Positions 21 to 42,132 of a DNA stretch of 42,132 bases are shown one piece after another (the stretch's first letter is position 1; every line of letters starts with the position of its first letter). This DNA comes from Escherichia phage megetsur. Both the position numbers and the translations under genes were made by a program. Where the stretch lies: the sequence record MN850608.1; one strand, written 5' to 3'. The notes below the pieces were generated by a model. The model was given only the letters and a program-made list of their open reading frames with translations, had not been told where the DNA came from and made no database searches.

Positions 21-380
21 GTGAATCAGCTCGGTCAGGGTGTCCGTGGCAAGGCGCTGGTAGACTGGTTCGTCAAGTTCGGCGGCCTGATTATCGGTGA
101 GAACGGCGGTAAACAGGGCTTCATCGGCTGGCAGGGCGCTGAGTATATCAAGGCGAACATCGACACGGCCAAAGCCACTATGTGGTGGAGCATGAAGCCT
201 GAGCAGGCGTTCGAAGGCTTCGACCTGCAAGATGCGCTCGAAAAGCTGATTGCCAAAGCTGAGAAGGCGCTGAACAAGGCCAATGAGCTGCGTCACGAAG
301 GCAAGGACGAAGACGCGAACAAGGTCGTAGTGCCTCAGAACGTGCTCGACCTGCTGCGCAAGGCTAAACAAGCTGCGTGA
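21..380 (+). CDS. hypothetical early protein, Lys/Ala-rich C-terminus; GTG at 21 but the frame is open to the window edge, so the 5' end may lie upstream
   Basis: ORF of 119 codons on the coding strand, followed by a 7-bp stem-loop at 388-410; no recognisable motif. Confidence 0.4.
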   Translation: MNQLGQGVRGKALVDWFVKFGGLIIGENGGKQGFIGWQGAEYIKANIDTAKATMWWSMKPEQAFEGFDLQDALEKLIAKAEKALNKANELRHEGKDEDANKVVVPQNVLDLLRKAKQAA

Positions 381-439
381 TTACTGACAGGCCATTCACT
401 GAGTGGCCTGAATTGTAACCACACAACTGGAGTGTAAAC

Positions 440-634
440 ATGCAAGAGTTCGACGCAATCCTCGTTACCTACAGCAGCATCACAAAAGGGCGCTGCCTTG
501 AAGGTAAGATTTACAATGACCGTGGCAGCCGCTTCTGTAACGGCACGCCTGTCACAACCTCACCTGTCGTATCGTTCGAGGGTGACGTGGCGATAACTGA
601 GAGTGGTACACGCTACCTCATTTGCGAGGCGTAG
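440..634 (+). CDS. hypothetical early protein (64 aa)
   Basis: ATG at 440 preceded by GGAG at 429-432 (7-nt spacer). Confidence 0.45.
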   Translation: MQEFDAILVTYSSITKGRCLEGKIYNDRGSRFCNGTPVTTSPVVSFEGDVAITESGTRYLICEA

Positions 635-675
635 GCCGGGATTGACTCAAGCCAGTGTCAAGGCGCTGGCTTTAT

Positions 676-712
676 GGCAATTCTGCCCCAACCATTTAGG
701 AGCTTCACCATG
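676..712 (+). promoter_or_regulatory. conserved GGCAAT-box translation-initiation region, copy 1
   Basis: GGCAATTCTGCC...AGGAG...ATG; one of four near-identical 37-nt boxes, each ending in the start codon of a paralogous small acidic gene and each preceded by a GC-rich hairpin (here 651-670). Confidence 0.5.
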
Positions 713-991
713 TCTACCAAAACTGTAACTGCTTTCATCACCAAACGTGACGGCGAACTGTATGGCTTCGCTGTATCTCTGAACGAGGGCCAGTACCTGC
801 ACCACGTCCGTGAAGACGGCGAGCCGACCGATAACGCAGGCATCCTTGAAACGCTGGCTGGTATCCCGCTGCCGCATGAGTTCATCATCATGCTCGCTGA
901 GCAGGACGAAGACGAGCTGAAAGCGCGTCACGGTAGCGGCCTGACGCTGGAAGAAATCGGCACCTTCGAAGCCGAGGTTGACGACGAGTAA
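710..991 (+). CDS. small acidic early protein, paralog family member 1 (93 aa)
   Basis: ATG 710 with AGGAG 7 nt upstream; strongly acidic, C-terminal TFEAEVDDE; the longer ORF-track start at 674 lacks an RBS. Confidence 0.6.
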   Translation: MSTKTVTAFITKRDGELYGFAVSLNEGQYLHHVREDGEPTDNAGILETLAGIPLPHEFIIMLAEQDEDELKARHGSGLTLEEIGTFEAEVDDE

Positions 992-1028
992 GCGTTGTCC
1001 TGCTGCGCCTTCAACGAGGGCGCAGCGT

Positions 1029-1065
1029 GGCAATAATGCCTTACTCAATCGAGGGTTTTACTATG
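1029..1065 (+). promoter_or_regulatory. conserved GGCAAT-box translation-initiation region, copy 2
   Basis: GGCAATAATGCCTTACTCAATCGAGGGTTTTACTATG; preceded by hairpin 1003-1025 (CTGCGCC / GGCGCAG). Confidence 0.5.
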
Positions 1066-1404
1066 ACTATCAAACTGGTTCTGCTGTCCAACATTGCTGC
1101 CTCTGCTTTCGGCGCAGGCGTTCCGGCTGACGCTATCACCAGCGAGTGGGTTGGCTTCACTCAGGACGACGAGCGTTACCTGATTGCAGGCCGCAACCGC
1201 GATGGCGATTCGCCTGACGAAATCGTGGCGCACTTCGATAACGACACCAGCTTCGCAGAGTTCCGCGAGTCTGGCTTCCCGCTGGAACTGTTCGCTCTCA
1301 TGGGCGGCCACTCCTACATCGACACCGAAACACTGGGTGAAGGCGTGGTTATCAACGTGCTCAAAGAGTACGACGCGGAAGACGATATCGACTTCGACGC
1401 GTGA
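1063..1404 (+). CDS. small acidic early protein, paralog family member 2 (113 aa)
   Basis: ATG 1063 with GAGGG 7 nt upstream; acidic, C-terminus AEDDIDFDA. Confidence 0.6.
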   Translation: MTIKLVLLSNIAASAFGAGVPADAITSEWVGFTQDDERYLIAGRNRDGDSPDEIVAHFDNDTSFAEFRESGFPLELFALMGGHSYIDTETLGEGVVINVLKEYDAEDDIDFDA

Positions 1405-1436
1405 TGCCTTGTTGCCTCCTTGCGAGGGGGCAATGC

Positions 1437-1472
1437 GGCAATCATGCCTTAACCTATCGAGGATTTATTATG
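1437..1472 (+). promoter_or_regulatory. conserved GGCAAT-box translation-initiation region, copy 3
   Basis: GGCAATCATGCCTTAACCTATCGAGGATTTATTATG; preceded by hairpin 1412-1433. Confidence 0.5.
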
Positions 1473-1745
1473 TCCACTATCAATGTGTTTGCACTGAACA
1501 ACGGCGGTCTGGCTTTCATCGTAGGCGAGACCAAAGATAACGCACCGTCGCTGGGCGTGCAGATGAAGCCGGACGCAAGCCACGATGAAGTAATCAGTGA
1601 AGTGCGCGAGGCGCTGGAAGACCTCGGCGGTATGCTGATTGCCATTCAGGGTGGTAAGCTGTCCGTCGAGAAGCTGAACGCACTGGAGCCGCGCTTCATC
1701 ACCAGCTTCGAAGCCGACAACGTAGACGCGGCTGACTTCGAGTAA
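1470..1745 (+). CDS. small acidic early protein, paralog family member 3 (91 aa)
   Basis: ATG 1470 with GAGG upstream; C-terminus SFEADNVDAADFE resembles member 1. Confidence 0.6.
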   Translation: MSTINVFALNNGGLAFIVGETKDNAPSLGVQMKPDASHDEVISEVREALEDLGGMLIAIQGGKLSVEKLNALEPRFITSFEADNVDAADFE

Positions 1746-1773
1746 CCCACAACCAACAACAGGAGTACAAAGC

Positions 1774-2004
1774 ATGGCTAAGTTTGAACTGGTACGCTTC
1801 ATCAACCCGAACGATGGCGAAGTAACCTTCGCACAATTCAACGCCGAGCGCACGGAGGTGGCTGTGTATACCAGCGAGCGCTACGCTCGTTCTCAACTGG
1901 GCAACGAAGAACACTTCGATGATATCGAAGAAGCGCTGGCTACTACGGGCTATGCTGCGGCTGTTCGGGCAGCACTGCAAGGCGAAGTCGTAGCGACTGC
2001 GTGA
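1774..2004 (+). CDS. hypothetical small acidic early protein (76 aa)
   Basis: ATG 1774 with AGGAG 8 nt upstream; no GGCAAT box. Confidence 0.55.
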   Translation: MAKFELVRFINPNDGEVTFAQFNAERTEVAVYTSERYARSQLGNEEHFDDIEEALATTGYAAAVRAALQGEVVATA

Positions 2005-2038
2005 TTTCTGTCAGCCCATCCATAGCGGTGGGCTGTAG

Positions 2039-2074
2039 GGCAATCATGCCACAACTAACTGAGGGTTTATCATG
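2039..2074 (+). promoter_or_regulatory. conserved GGCAAT-box translation-initiation region, copy 4
   Basis: GGCAATCATGCCACAACTAACTGAGGGTTTATCATG; preceded by hairpin 2012-2035 (CAGCCCA / TGGGCTG). Confidence 0.5.
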
Positions 2075-2356
2075 GCTAAAGTAACTGCTTACTACTCCGC
2101 TTCTGAAAAAGATATCGTTGCAATCGTGGGCGATGGCTTCGAAGAAGGCAACATGGCGCTGTGTATCTCCGGCTGCAAAGACGTACCGGAACTGAACACG
2201 GTTGAAGATGCGAAGGCTGCGCTGCCGTCGCTGGAATCTGACATCAGCCGCATGGGTGAGCTGGCGTTCCTGCTGAACGGCGGCACCTTGAATGAGGGCG
2301 CGGCTGTGAACATGCCTGCCAAGGGCTACGAAGCGATTGGTAGCTTCGAGGTCTAA
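2072..2356 (+). CDS. small acidic early protein, paralog family member 4 (94 aa)
   Basis: ATG 2072 with GAGGG upstream; acidic. Confidence 0.6.
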   Translation: MAKVTAYYSASEKDIVAIVGDGFEEGNMALCISGCKDVPELNTVEDAKAALPSLESDISRMGELAFLLNGGTLNEGAAVNMPAKGYEAIGSFEV

Positions 2357-2698: not shown

Positions 2699-2944
2699 AT
2701 GGCACGTTCAATTCTGATTCGCATCATCGGTCACACTTCCCTGCCTGAGCATTTCTCTGGCGCAGTACGTGACACCACCATCGGCAAAGAGTACGACGCA
2801 GTGCTGGTTGAGGATGGTGAAGAACTTCCTGACGGCAGCTACACAACTGACGAGCAGGGTATCTTCTTCGTTGATGATGTGGGTGACGAGTGCTTCGCAT
2901 TCACTGCCGCACACGTTGGCCACACCATTGAAATCGTGGAGTAA
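2699..2944 (+). CDS. hypothetical acidic early protein (81 aa)
   Basis: ATG 2699 with GAGGA 8 nt upstream; the ORF-track start at 2651 overlaps the upstream gene and lacks an RBS. Confidence 0.5.
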   Translation: MARSILIRIIGHTSLPEHFSGAVRDTTIGKEYDAVLVEDGEELPDGSYTTDEQGIFFVDDVGDECFAFTAAHVGHTIEIVE

Positions 2945-2947
2945 CCC

Positions 2948-3178
2948 ATGGCTAAAGAAGTAACCGTTCGCTACACTGGCGTGCATACGTCAGCGCATAG
3001 CAAGTTCTGTGCCCGTGACTGTACCATCGGTGAGCTGTATGCAGCACGTCTTCCTGAGCTGGGTGAGGTTGACCCGGATGGTCTGGAAGTCTGCCTGCCC
3101 AACGAGCTGTGGGTAGATGACGATGCAGGCGACACCGTTGTAACCCAGCTTGGCGATGGCTTCGAGCTGGTCGAGTGA
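2948..3178 (+). CDS. hypothetical acidic early protein (76 aa)
   Basis: ATG 2948 with GGAG upstream. Confidence 0.5.
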   Translation: MAKEVTVRYTGVHTSAHSKFCARDCTIGELYAARLPELGEVDPDGLEVCLPNELWVDDDAGDTVVTQLGDGFELVE

Positions 3179-3234
3179 TAAGCTACAGCCTCTGCTTGCG
3201 GGGGCTGTGTCATTATCAAACGAGCGAGGTCACT

Positions 3235-3387
3235 ATGAGTGGGAGCACATACAATGCCCACGCCAACCAGATATCATACGCTGGTTACTGTGCGCTGGGC
3301 GGGGCGAGCAACCCTAACCTAATGAGCCGGGCGGTATACCTCGGCGGTCACTACATGCACCATGAATATTATTTAATCCGGGGGTAG
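3235..3387 (+). CDS. hypothetical small protein (50 aa), weak call
   Basis: ATG 3235 with GAGG 5 nt upstream; hairpin 3186-3207 upstream. Confidence 0.3.
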   Translation: MSGSTYNAHANQISYAGYCALGGASNPNLMSRAVYLGGHYMHHEYYLIRG

Positions 3388-3389
3388 TT

Positions 3390-3674
3390 ATGGTACTGGC
3401 ATCTGAATCAATCATCGAACAAGCTGGCGCAATTCGTGAAGCTGAGCATCTGCGTGGGGTAGCCGCAACGCTCGGTCACTGTGCTGGTAACGGCGGCCTG
3501 CGTGGGCACTCGGTCGGCGGCGTATTCCCCTGCGTAATCTTCTCGCGGGGCAACCCACATGAACACCTCGACTGGTGCTTCCTCGCACCGAACGGCGACG
3601 AGTTCGACGGCTTCATCAGTTATGAAGATGCGTATGCAGCCGCGCAACAATGGCTGGAAGAAAGAGAGGTGTGA
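3390..3674 (+). CDS. hypothetical early protein (94 aa)
   Basis: ATG 3390 with GGGGG upstream. Confidence 0.5.
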   Translation: MVLASESIIEQAGAIREAEHLRGVAATLGHCAGNGGLRGHSVGGVFPCVIFSRGNPHEHLDWCFLAPNGDEFDGFISYEDAYAAAQQWLEEREV

Positions 3675-3676
3675 CT

Positions 3677-3976
3677 ATGAGTAAGTGGAGTGAGAACGTA
3701 GCCAAGCTACAGCGCTGGTTGGTGGATGCCTTTGGCGCACCGCCAGCACCTGTGCATGACGACTCGCCGTTTCAATACGTCGAGAAGAAAACGCAGGAGC
3801 TTAAGCTGGGCGACTACGTGGTAGCATACGGCGGGTACATCCAGCGCATCGGTGCCGAGGAATATGACGGCAGCCGACTGGTTGTTACCAAACTGGGGCA
3901 TGGCCCTGAACGTGAGTGGCAGGCGTACGAGGACGACGAGTTCACCGTGCGCATTTTAAAAGGTGATAACAAATGA
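3677..3976 (+). CDS. hypothetical early protein (99 aa)
   Basis: ATG 3677 with GAGAGG upstream. Confidence 0.5.
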   Translation: MSKWSENVAKLQRWLVDAFGAPPAPVHDDSPFQYVEKKTQELKLGDYVVAYGGYIQRIGAEEYDGSRLVVTKLGHGPEREWQAYEDDEFTVRILKGDNK

Positions 3977-4485: not shown

Positions 4486-4639
4486 GCTGGCCGTAATCAA
4501 ATCACCCACCGGATTATTCTGGTGGGTTGTTAATAAACTCCAGCCGAATAAACCTTTGGCTGTACGTGATACAAAGTGGGAGGCCGAGAGTAAACTCGAA
4601 GACCTGCAACGTATAGTGCGTAATGTTATTCCGGCGTAG
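4469..4639 (+). CDS. hypothetical small basic protein (56 aa)
   Basis: ATG 4469 with GGAG 7 nt upstream. Confidence 0.35.
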   Translation: MQRDTKLAVIKSPTGLFWWVVNKLQPNKPLAVRDTKWEAESKLEDLQRIVRNVIPA

Positions 4640-4675
4640 TCATCTACTCATGCCTGTTATTATTTAGCAGGCATT

Positions 4676-4696
4676 ATGAAGGTGTCTATATTGGCC
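4676..4696 (+). promoter_or_regulatory. copy A of a conserved ATGAArGTGTCTATA element; candidate phage-RNAP promoter at the early/middle boundary
   Basis: ATGAAGGTGTCTATATTGG shares 15 of 16 positions with the element at 18857; sits directly after hairpin 4650-4676 and before the first middle gene. Confidence 0.35.
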
Positions 4697-18854: not shown

Positions 18855-18877
18855 AAATGAAAGTGTCTATAGTGATA
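18855..18877 (+). promoter_or_regulatory. copy B of the conserved element ATGAAAGTGTCTATAGTGATA; candidate phage-RNAP promoter ahead of the late genes
   Basis: Exact 21-mer also present inverted at 40536-40556; contains CTATAG; followed by palindrome GTGATA-GA-TATCAC (18872-18885). Confidence 0.4.
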
Positions 18878-19124: not shown

Positions 19125-19125
19125 A

Positions 19126-19545
19126 ATGAAAGTGTCTACTATGGGAAATACATCACACACGACGATGCCACTCGACATTCGCCGTGCTGTGGCCGAAGGC
19201 ATTCAAGCTGAGCGGCCATGGTCAGACCTATCTCCCGATGTGATTGTTGACAGCATGTATGAGGCCACCGCCTCCGGTTGCGTTGACGTTTACATCACTG
19301 ACGATGACGGCAGCCTAATGGCTGTTGCTCACATCGGCAGGTTATTCGATATTCATGTGGGCGAGATGGTGGTCGTTATGGCCTCATACGTCTGGCCCCA
19401 GTACAGAAACCGTGGAGTGATGCGTGCCATCCTCCGTGTACTCAAAGACGTGGCCCGTTCAGCGGGTGTGCGTTGGTGCGGTTACTCCCATATGGTGCGG
19501 CCTTACGTTCAGGAGTACCGCTTCATTGATTTGGAGAAACCGTAA
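19126..19545 (+). CDS. hypothetical protein, possibly GNAT-like acetyltransferase
   Basis: Degenerate acetyl-CoA-binding-like motif WPQYRNRGVMRAIL; its first 15 nt repeat the promoter-like element. Confidence 0.35.
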   Translation: MKVSTMGNTSHTTMPLDIRRAVAEGIQAERPWSDLSPDVIVDSMYEATASGCVDVYITDDDGSLMAVAHIGRLFDIHVGEMVVVMASYVWPQYRNRGVMRAILRVLKDVARSAGVRWCGYSHMVRPYVQEYRFIDLEKP

Positions 19546-22636: not shown

Positions 22637-23629
22637 ATGGCTGATAACGCTTATACCCCGAACCAGTTCCGTCCACACTGGGGTGGCGCGAACTCTGACA
22701 ACGACATTCACCTTGAGGTGTATGACCGTGACGTGCAGACCCAGTTCATTTACAACTCCATCTTCCGTTCCGGTCTGACCAACTTCAAGTCTGTGGCTAA
22801 CCAGTCCAACACTTGGCGTGGCGACCGTCTCGGCTCTGTGACCGTTAAAGGTCGTCGCTCTGGCGAGGCGCTGGACAACCAGCCTGTTCGCTCTGAGAAA
22901 CTGATTGTCACTGTGGATACCGTGTCTTACATCCGTATCCCGATTGACTATCAGGACGACTGGACTGCGCCGGACTTCCGTGCCGAGCTGACCCGTAACA
23001 TGGGTACTGCTCAGGCTAAGGCGTTCGACCAAGCGCACGTCATCCAGCTCCAGAAGTCTGCTGACTTCGTGCCTCCGGCTTCTCTGGCTGGCGCGTTCAA
23101 CGCAGGTATCAAGGAGCAGGTCACTCTGACTGGCACCGTGGCATCTGAGGAAGATGACGCGTCTGCGCTGGTACATGGCCACAAGAAAGCTATCGAGGCG
23201 TTCATTCGCCGCGACGCTGACCTTGGCCGTCTGGTTACGCTGATTGACCCGGCGTGGTTCAGCATTCTGCTGGAGCACAAGAAACTGATGAACGTTGAGT
23301 TCACTGGTGGCCGTGGTGTCAACGACTTCGCAATGCGCCGTGTGGCTTACGTGAACGGTATCCGTATCATCGAGAGCAACGCGTTCCCGCAGGCGGCAAT
23401 CACTGACCACATCCTCGGCCCTGACTTCAACGTCACCGCCGACGAGATTCAGCGCAAGATGATTATCTTCGACCCGTCTCTGGCTCTGGTCACTGTCGAA
23501 GCCCAGCCGCTGTTCAACCGCGTATGGGATGACGAACGTGAACTGACCAACGTTCTGGACAGCTTCCACATGTACACCGTGGGTCAGCGTCGTCCAGACG
23601 TAGTGGCAGTCGTCACTACCGAGACCTAA
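22637..23629 (+). CDS. major capsid protein
   Basis: 330 aa, position and size as T7 gp10 and phiKMV capsid; followed by a strong hairpin. Confidence 0.8.
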   Translation: MADNAYTPNQFRPHWGGANSDNDIHLEVYDRDVQTQFIYNSIFRSGLTNFKSVANQSNTWRGDRLGSVTVKGRRSGEALDNQPVRSEKLIVTVDTVSYIRIPIDYQDDWTAPDFRAELTRNMGTAQAKAFDQAHVIQLQKSADFVPPASLAGAFNAGIKEQVTLTGTVASEEDDASALVHGHKKAIEAFIRRDADLGRLVTLIDPAWFSILLEHKKLMNVEFTGGRGVNDFAMRRVAYVNGIRIIESNAFPQAAITDHILGPDFNVTADEIQRKMIIFDPSLALVTVEAQPLFNRVWDDERELTNVLDSFHMYTVGQRRPDVVAVVTTET

Positions 23630-23639
23630 TGGTAAACTC

Positions 23640-23668
23640 GAAGCCCTTCTCTGAGGGGCTTCTATGAT
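23640..23668 (+). terminator. stem-loop after the capsid gene (T7 T-phi-like position)
   Basis: GAAGCCCT / GGGGCTTC stem with a 7-8 nt loop, followed by TATGATTAT. Confidence 0.5.
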
Positions 23669-23685
23669 TATCACTGGGAGGTTTT

Positions 23686-40059: not shown

Positions 40060-40530
40060 GTGCGCGGATTAGCCTCGCGACGTGCGCGATATTTGCTCGC
40101 GTGCGCTGCGCGGCGCGTCAAGAGGATTGCCTGCGTGCGGTATAGCTCGTGCGTGTCGCGTTTCATCGTCTGCCGTGTGGCGTGCTGTGCGCTGTCCTGC
40201 TGGCTGTGCTGTGCGGTGCTGTCCTATGGGGACGCTCTGCGCTGGCTGTGCGGTGCTGCGTGCTGCGCTCGGTCGGGCGGGTATCTGTCTCTTTTGCTCG
40301 CAAGCTCTGCGCCGTGGTGGTGCTGTGTGGTGGCGGTGGTGCTGCCGTGGTGCTGTCCTGTCTGCTGGCCTACTGTCTGCGCCGCCAGCTCTGCGCGTCA
40401 TGCTCTGCTACTGTGTCACCTGTCCTACTGCGTTCACTGGCTGCCGCCTGTCATCCTGTCGGATTCCATCCGTTGCCGTTCCGCGCTCGCTTGTTTCGGC
40501 TGCGCCGCGCTCGCTCTGCGTATCTAGCGA
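40060..40530 (+). repeat. strand-skewed G/T-rich low-complexity tract (A-poor on + strand)
   Basis: Reiterated GCTGTG, GTGGTG, CTGCGC units; three + frames and one - frame stay open, which is composition-driven and not coding. Confidence 0.7.
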
Positions 40531-40535
40531 TACTA

Positions 40536-40556
40536 TATCACTATAGACACTTTCAT
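40536..40556 (-). promoter_or_regulatory. copy D (inverted) of the 21-bp element ATGAAAGTGTCTATAGTGATA
   Basis: Exact reverse complement of 18857-18877; flank similarity extends to about 50 bp; the + strand here reads TCACTATAG, identical to T7 promoter positions -8 to +1. Confidence 0.4.
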
Positions 40557-40562
40557 AATTAT

Positions 40563-40662: not shown

Positions 40663-40683
40663 CACTTTTCTTGAAAATAATAC

Positions 40684-40713
40684 TTGCAAACTGTTTTGGT
40701 TATGTGCTGTAAT
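40684..40713 (+). promoter_or_regulatory. sigma70-type promoter P0 (TTGCAA-N18-TGcTGTAAT)
   Basis: -35 TTGCAA at 40684-40689, extended -10 TGCTGTAAT at 40705-40713. Confidence 0.5.
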
Positions 40714-40785
40714 TCATCACGTCTAAAGGCACTAGCCCAGTAGACACAGACAGACGGTAGCATCGCTCTTTAACAATCTGGTGTG

Positions 40786-40814
40786 TTGACAAGGCAAGCT
40801 CACTATGCTGTAAT
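40786..40814 (+). promoter_or_regulatory. sigma70-type early promoter P1 (TTGACA-N17-TGcTGTAAT)
   Basis: Consensus -35 TTGACA, 17-nt spacer, extended -10 TGCTGTAAT. Confidence 0.6.
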
Positions 40815-40922
40815 GCTTCCAGTCAGCCAGACAAGCCAAATAGTGATGGATAAACACGTTAACACCCGCGTAGGCTAACTGGTACGGTTTAATTAACTCA
40901 GAACGGGCGCTGATTAAATCGG

Positions 40923-40951
40923 TTGACAGGATGAAACGAGTATGCTGTAAT
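40923..40951 (+). promoter_or_regulatory. sigma70-type early promoter P2 (TTGACA-N17-TGcTGTAAT)
   Basis: Same architecture as P1. Confidence 0.6.
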
Positions 40952-41002
40952 ACACACCAGATTGACAGGGCAGCAAGCCAGTCAGTCAGAAGTAAAAAGT
41001 AG

Positions 41003-41031
41003 TTGACACGCTGAATACGATGTGATGTAAT
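41003..41031 (+). promoter_or_regulatory. sigma70-type early promoter P3 (TTGACA-N17-TGaTGTAAT)
   Basis: Same architecture as P1 and P2. Confidence 0.6.
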
Positions 41032-41039
41032 CAGCACCG

Positions 41040-41463
41040 AGTTGAAAGGTTGCAAAACAACCTGCTCTGAGTGAACGTAAACAGGCCACGTAGTGTCTCG
41101 GCCTCATGGGTATCCGGCGCAGCTAGGAACTGGTGAGGGCACCGCCGAAAGGCAATAGGGGTAGCGCCCGGTGCGATGGGAACGGAGAAGCGCGATAGAC
41201 GCAGCGCAGTATCAGCACAATCCCGAACGTCTTATAAGGCGCGGAGTGAAGCGGGTAGGTAGGCAAGCTGGAAACGGTGAGCCGGACTGCTGGAGGACTC
41301 CTGAGAGTGGATGCAGACAATATCCACGGCGCGAAATGGGCGGGGCGATTTTTCAGGGTAGTGAATCCGACAAGCCAATCAATGCCAACGAGTGCAGACT
41401 GTACGGCGCGTCACAATGGGTTCACTATCCACCTGAAAATAGCCAACAACTGGAGAAATAACT
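41040..41463 (+). other. long purine-rich non-coding leader between the early promoters and the first early gene
   Basis: About 420 nt with no RBS-preceded ORF; G/A-rich on the + strand; small hairpin GGTTG-CAAAA-CAACC at 41043-41057. Confidence 0.5.
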
Positions 41464-41853
41464 ATGTACCGTATCTATGCAAGCGCATATCGTCCGAATA
41501 ACGCTGAATGTGTTAATCTGGCGCTTCATTGCAAGGCACTGCGAACGGTGCAGGATATGTTCGGAGTGATTCCGGTCACGCTGACAGGCAAGTTCGACAA
41601 TCAGTATGAGTTGAGCATGGTATTTCCTGTCGATGGAATCTACGAAATCAGGAAGGCGGTATCGCTTTTCTGTAAGGTTCTTGAACAGGACTGCATCATG
41701 GTAGTGACCAAAGATGATGATGCAATCTTCATGGATTCACCGTATCCGGGCAAGCCTGCTGGCAAGCTGGTCAGCAAAACAGGCGAGCAGATGGAAGCCG
41801 GGCAGCATACCGCTTGGACTTATGACGGTGAACTGTTTTGGGTAGTGGAGTAA
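41464..41853 (+). CDS. hypothetical early protein (129 aa), first gene after the promoter cluster
   Basis: ATG 41464 with GGAG 9 nt upstream. Confidence 0.55.
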   Translation: MYRIYASAYRPNNAECVNLALHCKALRTVQDMFGVIPVTLTGKFDNQYELSMVFPVDGIYEIRKAVSLFCKVLEQDCIMVVTKDDDAIFMDSPYPGKPAGKLVSKTGEQMEAGQHTAWTYDGELFWVVE

Positions 41854-42000
41854 GGGGAATGACTATGTTCACTGCACTGTGTGTTATAGCGGCGGCCTGC
41901 TGGGTCATTGACCAGCGCCTGAGCCGTCGCCGTGGCTGATAGCCTATAGCGTCTTGCGAGGCGCTATGTGAAATCAACCAACCTGACAAGGGGTAACATC

Positions 42001-42132
42001 ATGACTACTGCAATCAAATACACCAGCTTCAAAGACGCTGCCGCTCTGGACAAGGCTATTGAGTCTACCGTCAAGAAGGCGCACTCACTCCGTAACGAGA
42101 TTCAGAACGTTGCGGTCGGTATCATCCTGCAC
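42001..42132 (+). CDS. hypothetical early protein, 3'-truncated at the window edge
   Basis: ATG 42001 with AAGGGG upstream; frame open to the end of the window. Confidence 0.4.
   Translation, partial: MTTAIKYTSFKDAAALDKAIESTVKKAHSLRNEIQNVAVGIILH

What the first reader, a model, noticed from the sequence alone, without database searches (positions are those of the whole stretch)
640..2356. Tandem family of four small acidic early proteins, each behind an identical hairpin plus GGCAAT box
Genes starting at 710, 1063, 1470 and 2072 encode 91-113-aa strongly acidic proteins with similar termini. Each start codon lies 33-34 nt after a GGCAATnATGCC motif inside a near-identical 37-nt initiation region, and each box is preceded by a 7-8-bp GC-rich hairpin (651-670, 1003-1025, 1412-1433, 2012-2035). 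This looks like tandem duplication and diversification of a cassette including its regulatory region. Small acidic early proteins of T7-like phages are classic anti-restriction or anti-defence DNA mimics (Ocr-like), so this may be a diversified counter-defence array. The box could be an operator for translational control or an RNA processing site.
Basis: seen in the sequence. Interest (0 to 1): 0.7.

Follow-up and report, generated by a model that had tools for sequence, protein, structure and literature searches.

The report
T7-type RNase III sites with box
The "hairpin plus GGCAAT box" before four small early phage genes most likely marks T7-style RNase III cutting sites that split a long early transcript into single-gene messages; this is a familiar mechanism with one unusual feature, an invariant 12-base leader.

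Summary
The window is a nearly complete Bonnellvirus genome (a phiKMV-like coliphage), and 640-2356 lies in its early operon, transcribed by the host RNA polymerase. The genes, the box and the hairpins are real. The box GGCAAT[ACT][ACG]TGCC occurs 55 times in 223 kb of related phage DNA. Every copy is on the coding strand, 20-25 nt before an SD+ATG.

The hairpins are not identical. Only two of the four proteins (1470 and 2072) are demonstrable paralogs. All neighbouring early proteins are equally acidic, and the predicted fold (three strands, three helices, one strand) is not Ocr-like.

RNA folding shows each "hairpin" is the upper stem of a 50-60 nt two-tier hairpin. The box is the 3' strand of the lower stem. 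The 5' strand covers the upstream stop codon in cassettes 2-4.

Cassette 1 reads GACUCAAG-stem-CUUUAU|GGCAAU, the T7 RNase III site consensus. A covariance model built only from seven T7 sites finds cassette 1 (E 1e-4) and, weakly, cassette 4 (E 0.08), plus box-less sites. A reciprocal model recovers the known T7 sites.

By analogy, cleavage falls just 5' of the box. The freed box can then fold into a 4-bp hairpin at the new 5' end. Its role (stabiliser or operator) is inferred, not shown.

The parts
634..687 (+). Cassette 1: two-tier RNA hairpin. Lower-stem 5' strand 634-647, upper stem-loop 649-672, spacer UAU 673-675, box GGCAAUUCUGCC 676-687. It reads GACUCAAG-stem-CUUUAU|GG like T7 R0.3/R0.5/R1.1. 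Predicted RNase III cut between 675 and 676.
   Evidence: Fold. T7-only covariance model hit at 637-689: 28.8 bits, E 1.1e-4. Bonnellvirus model: 39.8 bits. T7 site sequences.
986..1046 (+). Cassette 2: 27-bp irregular hairpin. The 5' strand covers the last codon and TAA stop of gene 710. Upper stem-loop about 1002-1027, box GGCAAUAAUGCC 1029-1040, outermost stem GAGUAAG/CUUACUC.
   Evidence: Fold -37.7 kcal/mol, z -4.4. Compensatory GAGUAAG/CUUACUC to GAAUAAG/CUUAUUC in RZ4 and glasur. Not detected by the T7-derived models.
1399..1448 (+). Cassette 3: 21-bp hairpin. The 5' strand GCGUGAUGCC (Ala codon plus TGA stop of gene 1063) pairs with the box GGCAAUCAUGCC (1437-1448). Upper stem-loop 1410-1435.
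   Evidence: Fold z -4.0. Box/5'-strand duplex -15.0 kcal/mol, better than 99.9% of genome 16-mers. Box positions 7 and 8 covary with the 5' strand in L016. Not detected by the T7-derived models.
1999..2050 (+). Cassette 4: hairpin whose 5' strand GCGUGAUUUCU (Ala codon plus TGA stop of gene 1774) pairs with the box GGCAAUCAUGCC (2039-2050). Upper stem-loop 2012-2035.
   Evidence: Fold z -3.8. T7 model E 0.084. Bonnellvirus R-site model, not trained on this type: 35.7 bits, E 2.3e-6.
710..991 (+). Gene 710: 93-aa acidic protein of unknown function. AlphaFold model has three strands, three helices and one strand (pLDDT 82.5).
1063..1404 (+). Gene 1063: 113-aa acidic protein of unknown function. 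No detectable sequence similarity to the other three genes. Structure not modelled.
1470..1745 (+). Gene 1470: 91-aa acidic protein, paralog of gene 2072. AlphaFold model has three strands, three helices and one strand (pLDDT 93).
1774..2004 (+). Gene 1774: 76-aa acidic protein inside the array, with no hairpin or box here. In J8-65 its homolog sits behind the cassette-1 module and a box.
2072..2356 (+). Gene 2072: 94-aa acidic protein, paralog of gene 1470 (phrog_32287, unknown function).
377..427 (+). T7-type RNase III-like hairpin without a box, after the 175-aa gene and before gene 440. The same site is followed by a box in Lidtsur and J8-65.
   Evidence: searches (E 4.5e-5; 67.5 bits), alignment A7.
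3176..3224 (+). T7-type RNase III-like hairpin without a box, after gene 2948.
   Evidence: E 0.018; E 0.009.
41937..41976 (+). Two-tier hairpin without a box, AGCCUAUAGCGUC..GGCGCUAUGUGAA. This is the motif published as the KP34 'putative phage promoter'. It has the same design but is not detected by the T7-derived models.

Best explanation
The window is a Bonnellvirus, a phiKMV-like Autographiviridae phage. Region 640-2356 lies in its early operon, which host RNA polymerase transcribes from strong sigma70-type promoters at about 40690-41030.

Each 'hairpin plus box' is a single RNA element: a 50-60 nt two-tier hairpin of 20-27 bp. The GGCAAT box is the 3' strand of the lower stem. The 5' strand covers the stop codon of the upstream gene in cassettes 2-4, and lies just after the stop in cassette 1.

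These elements are the Bonnellvirus counterparts of the T7 early RNase III processing sites. By analogy with T7 (CCUUUAU|GAUU), host RNase III would cut three nucleotides after the upper stem, immediately 5' of box nucleotide G1. The upstream cistron would keep a protective 3' hairpin, and a monocistronic message would be released that starts with pGGCAAUNNUGCC about 33 nt before its AUG.

Once released from the lower stem, the box is self-complementary (GGCA-NNNN-UGCC, -3.5 kcal/mol) and is predicted to fold into a 4-bp hairpin at the new 5' end. I infer that this either shields the 5'-monophosphate end from RNase E or serves as a leader operator. Either role would explain why its sequence is invariant while its pairing partners vary.

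The downstream genes encode small acidic alpha+beta proteins of unknown function. 1470 and 2072 are paralogs, and 710 probably shares the fold.

Shown: the anatomy, its conservation, the covariation and the similarity to T7 sites. Inferred: cleavage itself, its exact position, and any function of the 5' hairpin.
For: Identity and context:
- The window matches Bonnellvirus genomes at 81-96% identity.
- Early promoters and a SAMase gene lie upstream.

Structure:
- All four intergenic regions fold into extended hairpins in which the box pairs with the sequence 5' of the upper stem. Energies are -28.7 to -37.7 kcal/mol, with z -3.8 to -4.4 for three of them and -1.8 for cassette 1.
- In seven contexts the 16 nt upstream of the upper stem pairs with the box better than 93-99.9% of genome 16-mers.
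- The two variable box positions covary with the 5' strand: G-C/U-A, U-A/U-A, G.U/G-C, G.U/U-A and U-A/C-G.
- The outer stem of cassette 2 shows a compensatory change.

Similarity to T7 sites:
- T7 sites share GUGAUAnACUCAAGG-stem-CCUUUAU|GA. Cassette 1 reads GGGAUUGACUCAAGCC-stem-GGCUUUAUGGCAAU.
- A covariance model built only from seven T7 sites hits six plus-strand sites in the window: 23628, 377, 637 (cassette 1, E 1.1e-4), 4638, 3176 and 2000 (cassette 4, E 0.084).
- The same model scores up to 51 bits in relatives.
- Those hits show 95% pairing, with 13 of 18 pairs changed on both sides and 0 of 500 shuffles reaching the observed values.
- A model built from the Bonnellvirus hits returns R1.1, R4.7, R0.5, R18.5, R0.3 and R1 as its only matches below E 1e-4 in T7. 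It detects cassette 4 at E 2e-6.

Geometry:
- Box start to ATG is 33-34 nt, against 25-35 nt from cleavage to ATG at four of the five T7 early sites.
- Upper stem-loops are 24-27 nt, against the 28-nt upper product of R1.1.

Established knowledge:
- T7 early RNA is cut co-transcriptionally at five RNase III sites.
- Internal loops or bulges limit cleavage to one strand and leave a protective 3' hairpin.
- 5' secondary structure stabilises mRNA because RNase E and RppH need single-stranded 5' ends.

The 5' hairpin:
- It is the predicted minimum-energy structure in 37 of 41 distinct processed leaders.
- Box variants, with their leaders, often travel with the downstream gene, as for the 1063 homologs in Lidtsur and J8-65.
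Against: - No experimental end-mapping exists for any Bonnellvirus, so cleavage is inferred.
- Cassettes 2 and 3 are not detected by either T7-derived model. They lack the ACUC/UAUGA internal loop and resemble T7 sites only in architecture.
- In several relatives a single substitution breaks a lower-stem pair (RZ4 and Kc261 cassette 2, J8-65 and Lidtsur cassette 1). The minimum-energy fold then switches to upper hairpin plus box mini-hairpin.
- In the J8-65 2576 / Lidtsur 1097 context the box lies after a complete two-tier hairpin. By the T7 analogy it would sit 9 nt from the cut, not flush with the 5' end. This weakens the '5'-terminal' stabiliser idea.
- In that context the box keeps its distance to the AUG rather than to the hairpin, which fits a role tied to translation initiation.
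- RNase III has no known need for a conserved 12-mer, so the processing model alone does not explain the invariance.
- The T7 cleavage coordinates were recalled from memory (Dunn and Studier 1983). The check is that R0.3, R0.5, R1.1, R4.7 and R18.5 fall at the same motif position, and R1 and R1.3 two to three nucleotides after the upper stem.
- Model R2 was built from hits selected with the T7 model, so the reciprocal test is not fully independent.
Confidence: 0.62

Rival explanations
1. The box is an operator for a sequence-specific RNA-binding protein, encoded by the phage or the host. It would control translation or timing of a subset of early cistrons, as T4 RegA does. The long hairpin would only sequester or present the box, or would be an unrelated RNase III site next to it.
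For: - Ten of the 12 box positions are invariant in 55 instances across phages that differ by 25-30% in nucleotide sequence (identities).
- The distance to the AUG is fixed at 20-25 nt in every context, including the one where the distance to the hairpin changes.
- The box is a clean 12-nt presence/absence module.
- Only a subset of early genes carry it.
- Loop positions 5-6 (AU) are invariant, although no structure requires this.
Against: - No candidate binding protein was identified. The early proteins have no Pfam domain.
- The variable box positions covary with the upstream strand. A free operator would not need that.
- The box begins exactly where the T7 analogy places the RNase III cut.
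Confidence: 0.17
2. The box has no function of its own. It is simply the 3' strand of the lower stem. It is kept similar because it pairs with a constrained coding sequence (Ala codon GCG plus TGA stop, then U), and because the cassettes descend from one duplicated RNase III site, perhaps homogenised by recombination.
For: - Cassettes 3 and 4, L016a and J8-65c all pair the box with GCGUGA(U/C), which is codon-constrained.
- T7 sites also start with GUGAU around a stop codon.
- 1470 and 2072 are true paralogs, so at least one cassette duplication occurred.
Against: - In cassette 1 the partner strand is intergenic and different (GGCCGGGAUUG). In cassette 2 it is GCGUUGU. The pairing registers differ between cassettes, yet the box is the same, so the partners adapt to the box and not the reverse.
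- In Lidtsur and J8-65 the box follows a hairpin that is already complete without it.
- Twelve nucleotides is very short for gene conversion.
- Box-less R-sites in the same genomes have freely varying 3' strands.
Confidence: 0.13
3. The box acts on DNA: as a promoter element for host or phage RNA polymerase, or as a binding site for a dimeric DNA-binding regulator (GGCA-N4-TGCC half-sites). The preceding hairpins would be terminators.
For: - The core GGCA/TGCC is palindromic.
- The hairpin, box and RBS order resembles terminator-promoter cassettes such as the T4 promoter-early stem-loops (recalled from memory; not retrieved here).
Against: - There is no sigma70-like hexamer pair at the boxes and no U-tract terminators.
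- The GG-to-GC spacing is 3 bp too short for sigma54 (sequence compared with the recalled TGGCAC-N5-TTGCA consensus).
- The candidate phage-polymerase promoter is a different, SP6-like motif at 18856, 19125, 4675 and 40539.
- The related KP34 hairpin motif is not used by KP34 RNA polymerase in vitro.
- Conservation is asymmetric: positions 5-6 are invariant while their mirror positions 7-8 vary and never read AT, unlike a dimer site.
- The variable positions covary with a sequence 30-40 nt upstream, which implies single-strand pairing.
Confidence: 0.05

Closest known systems
Bacteriophage T7 RNase III processing sites (R0.3, R0.5, R1, R1.1, R1.3 in the early operon; R4.7, R18.5 and others later)
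   Same: - Intercistronic position in a polycistronic early transcript made by host RNA polymerase.
- Two-tier hairpin of about two helical turns, with an internal loop or bulges.
- A 5' strand that starts around the upstream stop codon (GUGAU).
- Cassette 1 shares GACUCAAG...CUUUAUG.
- Similar distance from the predicted cut to the next AUG (33-34 nt here; 25-35 nt at four T7 early sites).
- Mutual detection by covariance models.
   Different: - In T7 the strand 3' of the cut varies from site to site. Here four sites per genome carry an invariant, self-complementary 12-mer.
- Cassettes 2 and 3 have nearly continuous helices with single-base bulges instead of the 4x5 internal loop, and are not found by the models.
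- Cleavage is untested here.
KP34-like (Drulisvirus) 'putative phage promoter' AGCCTATAGCGTCCTACGGGGCGCTATGTGAA (PMC4411677)
   Same: - The same motif is present in the window at 41941-41972. It folds into the same kind of two-tier intergenic hairpin in the early region.
   Different: - It carries no GGCAAT box.
- It was published as a promoter candidate, which in vitro transcription with KP34 RNA polymerase refuted.
- The reading proposed here is RNA processing.
5'-terminal stem-loops that stabilise E. coli mRNAs (ompA, papA; Emory, Bouvet and Belasco 1992, as reviewed in PMC3997798)
   Same: - A short hairpin at or very near the 5' end of a message. RNase E and RppH need single-stranded 5' ends.
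- The box hairpin would start at nucleotide 1 of the processed RNA in the four window cassettes.
   Different: - The box stem has only 4 bp (-3.5 kcal/mol).
- It would be generated by processing rather than by transcription initiation.
- In one context it would lie 9 nt from the end.
- No stability data exist.
Start-associated sequences (SAS/ESAS) of cluster K mycobacteriophages, and T4 promoter-early stem-loop cassettes. Both are recalled from memory and were not retrieved here.
   Same: - Short motifs repeated in front of a subset of phage genes at a fixed distance from the start codon, combined with nearby inverted repeats.
- The regulatory modules are shuffled relative to the genes they precede.
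   Different: - Different sequences, hosts and positions. SAS overlaps the SD, and the T4 cassettes contain a sigma70 promoter.
- No homology is implied.
T7 Ocr (gp0.3) and other acidic DNA-mimic anti-restriction proteins
   Same: - Small, strongly acidic early proteins encoded near the left end of a T7-supergroup genome.
   Different: - No sequence match.
- Acidity is shared by unrelated neighbouring genes.

Membership tests
T7-type RNase III processing site | Lies between cistrons of a polycistronic early transcript made by host RNA polymerase, between an upstream stop codon and the next ribosome-binding site | tested here: met
   Strong sigma70-type promoters lie at about 40690-41030 and all genes are on the + strand. 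The elements occupy 634-687, 986-1046, 1399-1448 and 1999-2050, between a stop codon and the SD.
T7-type RNase III processing site | Hairpin of about two helical turns (20 bp or more, coaxial), interrupted by an internal loop or bulges | tested here: met
   20-27 bp with bulges or internal loops in all four cassettes. Fold z -3.8 to -4.4 for three and -1.8 for cassette 1.
T7-type RNase III processing site | Similarity in sequence and structure to the mapped T7 sites, scored with a covariance model built only from T7 sites | tested here: inconclusive
   Cassette 1: 28.8 bits, E 1.1e-4. Cassette 4: 17.7 bits, E 0.084 (then 35.7 bits with the Bonnellvirus model). Cassettes 2 and 3 are not detected at E<10 with the T7 model or E<1 with the Bonnellvirus model. 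Box-less sites at 377, 3176, 4638 and 23628 are detected.
T7-type RNase III processing site | Base pairs maintained by compensatory change | tested here: met
   On 19 model hits from 12 Bonnellvirus sequence sources (the window and 11 related loci): 95% paired, 13 of 18 pairs changed on both sides, 0 of 500 shuffles as high, slid controls 34-45% paired. For the box cassettes, box positions 7 and 8 covary with the 5' strand, and the outer stem of cassette 2 changes on both sides. The alignment was fitted to the model, which favours the structure.
T7-type RNase III processing site | Cleaved by host RNase III in vivo or in vitro at a defined phosphodiester bond | not testable with these tools
   No transcript-end data exist for any Bonnellvirus. 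The library search found no paper linking RNase III to phiKMV-like phages.
Ocr-like / DNA-mimic anti-restriction protein | Sequence or fold relationship to Ocr or another known DNA mimic | tested here: not met
Ocr-like / DNA-mimic anti-restriction protein | Strongly acidic surface that patterns charge like DNA | tested here: inconclusive
   Net charge is -9 to -18, but 10 of the 12 early products computed are similarly acidic, pI 4.05-4.81. Charge patterning on the models was not analysed.
Tandem paralog family of the four proteins | Detectable homology among all four | tested here: inconclusive
Phage single-subunit RNA polymerase promoter | Motif recurs downstream of the RNA polymerase gene and before late genes | tested here: not met
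   The box occurs only at 676-2050. A different, SP6-like motif occupies the expected promoter positions at 18856 and 19125. The related KP34 hairpin motif is inactive with KP34 RNA polymerase.
Sigma70 promoter / intrinsic terminator pair | -35/-10 hexamers at the box; a U-tract after the hairpin | tested here: not met
   The consensus scan finds no promoter at boxes 1-3 and only a 9/12 match overlapping box 4 and its ATG. No terminator-like site lies at any of the four hairpins.

The most novel reading that the evidence does not exclude
The GGCAAU box is a bistable RNA element. In the precursor RNA it is locked into the lower stem, whose other strand contains the upstream stop codon in cassettes 2-4. 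RNase III cleavage, or a ribosome terminating on the upstream cistron, releases it. It then refolds into a 5'-proximal 4-bp hairpin with a conserved AU-containing loop. That hairpin would be a dedicated signal: either a shield against 5'-end-dependent RNase E decay, or the operator of an unidentified phage or host RNA-binding protein. Such a signal would set the stability or translation of a chosen subset of early messages. This would be a processing-coupled leader code not described for T7-like phages.
Probability: 0.25. Interest if true: 0.6.

Novelty: new variant of a known kind. Interest (0 to 1): 0.4.

Why it matters
RNase III processing of early transcripts is textbook for T7. It has not been annotated or discussed for phiKMV-like coliphages. 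The homologous hairpin in KP34-like phages was published as a putative promoter and later shown to be inactive as one.

Recognising these elements as processing sites has three uses:
- It corrects that annotation.
- It delimits the real transcription and processing units of Bonnellvirus early regions.
- It supplies a covariance model that finds such sites in related genomes.

The invariant 12-nt leader is the unusual part. If it acts as a 5' stabiliser or an operator, it would be a compact, portable element for controlling the expression of processed cistrons.

The proteins behind it are a genus-restricted set of small acidic alpha+beta proteins of unknown function. They are reasonable candidates for host takeover or anti-defence screens, but nothing here shows that role.

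Tried and rejected
1. Phage RNA polymerase promoter. Rejected: the box is absent outside 676-2050. The KP34 strong promoter is absent. A separate SP6-like motif sits at the expected promoter positions.
2. Sigma70 or sigma54 promoter, or intrinsic terminator. Rejected by the consensus scan and by spacing (GG to GC is 3 bp too short for sigma54).
3. Rfam: no family reaches its gathering score anywhere in the window.
4. Upstream mini-ORF starting at the AUG/CUG inside the box. Rejected: the frames and stops are not conserved between cassettes or phages.
5. Homology of the 175-aa protein to the 1470 family, suggested by clustering. Rejected: the link is a chimeric ROV85 gene made by a deletion.
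6. Box-mediated deletions or shuffling. The deletions in forsur, usur and ROV85 have breakpoints inside genes, not at boxes. Modules are shuffled relative to genes, with junctions that appear to lie near the start codons. I did not pursue this further.
7. Wider distribution:
   - The anchor-protein scan of viral contigs found boxes only in relatives with 65% or higher anchor identity. Loci at 45-50% identity have two-tier hairpins without a box.
9. PADLOC and NCBIfam were not searched.


Full report
**What the window is.** The first 6 kb match Bonnellvirus genomes (Autographiviridae; phiKMV-like gene order) at 81-96% identity. These include Enterobacter phage BHUENT7, Escherichia phages HHU8, aldrigsur, glasur, usur, J8-65 and Lidtsur, Cronobacter RZ4 and Kosakonia Kc261. 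The window is a circular permutation of an almost whole genome.
- The genome's left end lies near 40500.
- Four strong sigma70-type promoters (TTGACA/TTGCAA-N17-TGTAAT) sit at about 40690-41030.
- A gene annotated in relatives as an anti-restriction SAMase is at 41465-41854.
- A conserved 175-aa gene runs across the window ends.
- The small genes of the finding follow it.

The finding therefore lies in the early operon transcribed by host RNA polymerase.

**Checking the observation.**
- The four ORFs, their lengths (93, 113, 91 and 94 aa) and their acidity (pI 4.05-4.33) are as described.
- The box is at 676, 1029, 1437 and 2039. Three copies match GGCAATnATGCC exactly and one is GGCAATTCTGCC. 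There is no further copy with one mismatch or fewer in 42 kb.
- Box start to ATG is 33-34 nt.
- A GC-rich hairpin ends 3 nt before each box.
- In the window plus related loci (223 kb) the strict box GGCAAT-NN-TGCC occurs 55 times. Every copy is on the coding strand, 20-25 nt before an SD+ATG. Positions 1-6 and 9-12 are invariant; position 7 is T, A or C and position 8 is C, A or G.

Corrections to the observation:
- The hairpins are not identical.
- The surrounding 45 nt are only 60-73% identical.
- A fifth, box-less gene (1774-2004) lies inside the array.
- 10 of the 12 early products computed are about as acidic, pI 4.05-4.81.

**What the hairpin and box are.** Folding each intergenic region with its flanks gives a long two-tier hairpin, not a short hairpin followed by a free box. 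After a bulge or small internal loop, the box forms the 3' strand of a lower stem. The 5' strand of that lower stem is the sequence just upstream of the upper stem. In cassettes 2-4 it includes the last codon and stop codon of the preceding gene: GAGUAAG in cassette 2, GCGUGAUGCC in cassette 3, GCGUGAUUUCU in cassette 4. The helices total 20-27 bp.

Several results support this fold:
- Three of the four folds are much more stable than shuffled controls (z -3.8 to -4.4). Cassette 1 is weaker (z -1.8).
- In seven distinct contexts, the 16 nt upstream of the upper stem pair with the box better than 93-99.9% of all 16-mers in the genome.
- The two variable box positions covary with their partners: G-C/U-A (cassettes 3 and 4), U-A/U-A (cassette 2), G.U/G-C (cassette 1), G.U/U-A and U-A/C-G (two cassettes of the metagenomic relative L016).
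- The outer stem of cassette 2 changes GAGUAAG/CUUACUC to GAAUAAG/CUUAUUC in RZ4 and glasur.

Box-less hairpins of the same design lie at 377-427, 3176-3224 and 41937-41976.

**Comparison with T7.** I folded the T7 early intergenic regions around the RNase III cleavage coordinates. I recalled these from Dunn and Studier 1983: 890, 1468, 3138, 5887, 6450, 13892 and 36856. Five of them (890, 1468, 5887, 13892, 36856) fall at the same motif position, and 3138 and 6450 fall two to three nucleotides after the upper stem. This supports the recollection.

The T7 sites share GUGAUAnACUCAAGG, a 10-bp stem-loop, then CCUUUAU|GAUU followed by a variable strand. Cassette 1 reads GGGAUUGACUCAAGCC-stem-GGCUUUAU GGCAAUUCUGCC, which is the same frame with the box starting exactly at the T7 cleavage position.

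Covariance-model tests:
- A model built only from seven T7 sites was run on the whole window with filters off. It returned six plus-strand matches: 23628-23679 (E 3e-7, just after the capsid gene), 377-427 (4.5e-5), 637-689 (cassette 1, 1.1e-4), 4638-4691 (3e-4), 3176-3224 (0.018) and 2000-2052 (cassette 4, 0.084).
- The same model scores up to 51 bits in relatives. Lidtsur 3328-3379 reads ACUCAAGG...CCUUUAUGA.
- On those hits, 95% of cells pair and 13 of 18 pairs change on both sides. No shuffle out of 500 reaches the observed values, and slid controls pair at only 34-45%.
- A model rebuilt from the Bonnellvirus hits returns R1.1, R4.7, R0.5, R18.5, R0.3 and R1 as its only matches below E 1e-4 in the T7 genome. 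It detects cassette 4, on which it was not trained, at E 2e-6. This reciprocal test is partly circular, because its training set was chosen with the T7 model.
- Cassettes 2 and 3 are not found by either model. They share the architecture but not the ACUC/UAUGA internal loop.

**Mechanism proposed.** Three pieces of established knowledge apply:
- T7 early RNA is a polycistronic precursor cut co-transcriptionally by host RNase III at five sites.
- Substrates have about two helical turns. Internal loops or bulges restrict cutting to one strand and leave a 3' hairpin that protects the upstream RNA.
- The upper-stem product of R1.1 is 28 nt. The upper stem-loops here are 24-27 nt.

By analogy, RNase III would cut three nucleotides after the upper stem, immediately 5' of box G1. 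Each downstream message would then start pGGCAAUNNUGCC, 33-34 nt before its AUG. In T7, cleavage lies 25-35 nt before the AUG at four of the five early sites.

The box itself is self-complementary (GGCA-NNNN-UGCC, -3.5 to -3.7 kcal/mol). In RNAs that begin at G1, this hairpin is the minimum-energy structure in 37 of 41 distinct leaders, usually with pair probabilities above 0.9. Both RNase E and RppH need single-stranded 5' ends, and 5' structures stabilise mRNAs. A stabilising 5' hairpin is therefore a reasonable reading, but it is inference.

**What does not fit neatly.**
- RNase III needs no conserved 12-mer, so processing alone does not explain the invariance.
- In Lidtsur and J8-65, the site after the 175-aa gene is complete without the box. 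The box follows it as a clean 12-nt insertion relative to the window and aldrigsur. There the box would lie 9 nt from the predicted cut, yet it keeps its 22-23 nt distance to the AUG.
- Box variants also tend to travel with the downstream gene. 1063 homologs carry ...AATAATGCC or ...AATACTGCC, and 1470 and 2072 homologs carry ...AATCATGCC.
- This suggests the box belongs to the downstream leader and may act in translation or be bound by a protein. I keep that as the main rival.
- A few natural variants break one lower-stem pair and then fold as upper hairpin plus mini-hairpin. The two structures are close in energy, so a switch is conceivable.

**Other readings tested.**
- The box is not a phage-polymerase promoter. 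It is confined to 676-2050. A different SP6-like motif, AATGAAAGTGTCTATAGTG, lies after the RNA polymerase gene (18856, 19125), at the early/middle boundary (4675), and in antisense near the genome end (40539).
- The KP34-group 'putative phage promoter' hairpin (PMC4411677) is the same motif as window 41941-41972. KP34 RNA polymerase does not transcribe from it (PMC6834552).
- No sigma70 hexamers or U-tract terminators fit the elements.
- Rfam has no match.

**The proteins.**
- Pairwise BLAST finds nothing among the four genes. The same run finds the real paralogs 2699 and 2948 at 9e-10.
- Profile comparison links 1470 with 2072 (94%, E 9e-8, full length). A database search yields 24 clusters that grade between the two, all from roughly 42-kb Bonnellvirus-like contigs, with no Pfam domain and no informative name.
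- 710 and 1063 have few homologs and no significant profile match to the others.
- AlphaFold gives a confident model for 1470 (pLDDT 93) and a fair one for 710 (82.5). Both have the same order of elements: three strands, three helices, one strand.
- In BFVD the 1470 model matches a Lidtsur homolog, two LIMElight proteins with consecutive accessions (so probably adjacent genes), and another small Bonnellvirus early protein. This fits a recurrent small fold in these early regions.
- Nothing resembles Ocr or another known DNA mimic. Function remains unknown.

**Verdict.** The sequence features are real and strongly conserved. The best-supported reading is that they are T7-type RNase III processing sites of a phiKMV-like coliphage. 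The GGCAAT box is an unusually invariant first 12 nt of the downstream product, doubling as the lower-stem strand. This is a new variant of a known kind. Its practical value is a corrected annotation and a testable hypothesis about the leader. The counter-defence interpretation of the proteins is not supported by anything found here, but it is not excluded.

Noticed in passing
window 18856-18874 (+), 19125-19143 (+), 4675-4693 (+), 40539-40557 (-): An SP6-like motif AATGAAAGTGTCTATAGTG recurs four times, against 0.01 expected by chance. It is a candidate promoter for the phage RNA polymerase. Two copies lie just after the RNA polymerase gene and one overlaps the 3' side of an RNase III-like hairpin at the early/middle boundary. 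The fourth is antisense near the genome end, like the antisense promoter P001 reported for LUZ19 (PMC10914365).
   Followed up: partly
window 23628-23679 (+): This is the best match in the window to the T7 RNase III site model (38.7 bits, E 3e-7; 54.7 bits with the Bonnellvirus model). It lies immediately after the major capsid gene and reads AAACUCGAAGCC...GGCUUCUAUGAUUAUCAC.
   Followed up: partly
window 40680-41460: Four strong sigma70-type promoters (TTGACA or TTGCAA, 17 nt, TGTAAT) are followed by a roughly 430-nt GC-rich untranslated leader before the first gene. No Rfam family matches it.
   Followed up: no
window 42002-42132 and 1-380: The conserved 175-aa early gene is split by the window ends. 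About 19-20 nt (encoding ..AYHHGDY..) are missing between position 42132 and position 1, so the window is not a perfectly closed circle.
   Followed up: partly
L007 (Pantoea phage ROV85) 3656-4186: An in-frame chimeric gene joins the first ~118 residues of the 175-aa protein to the last ~75 residues of a 1470-family protein. It was created by a deletion at a shared KPEA microhomology that removed the genes in between.
   Followed up: partly
window 41941-41972: The hairpin motif published as the KP34-group 'putative phage promoter' (AGCCTATAGCG..CGCTATGTGAA) is conserved here. It folds as a two-tier intergenic hairpin of the same design as the other early hairpins.
   Followed up: partly
window 2699-2944 and 2948-3178: These two adjacent small acidic genes are clear paralogs (BLASTP 37% identity over the full length, E 9e-10; phrog_17459 and phrog_23195). 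They are a better-supported tandem duplication than the four genes of the finding.
   Followed up: no
L011 (forsur) 3275-3436; L006 (usur) 3483-3840: Relatives carry internal deletions that truncate gene 1063 (forsur: two boxes only 150 nt apart) or gene 1470 (usur: 32 codons left). At least these genes are therefore dispensable for plaque formation on E. coli K-12.
   Followed up: no
L017 7722-7790, 10409-10469; L018 3538-3607, 5833-5893: More distant relatives (45-50% anchor identity) lack the GGCAAT box. They have a different recurring two-tier intergenic hairpin, CGUUUGCCC-AAGGC..GCCUU-CAUCAAGCG, before small early genes.
   Followed up: no
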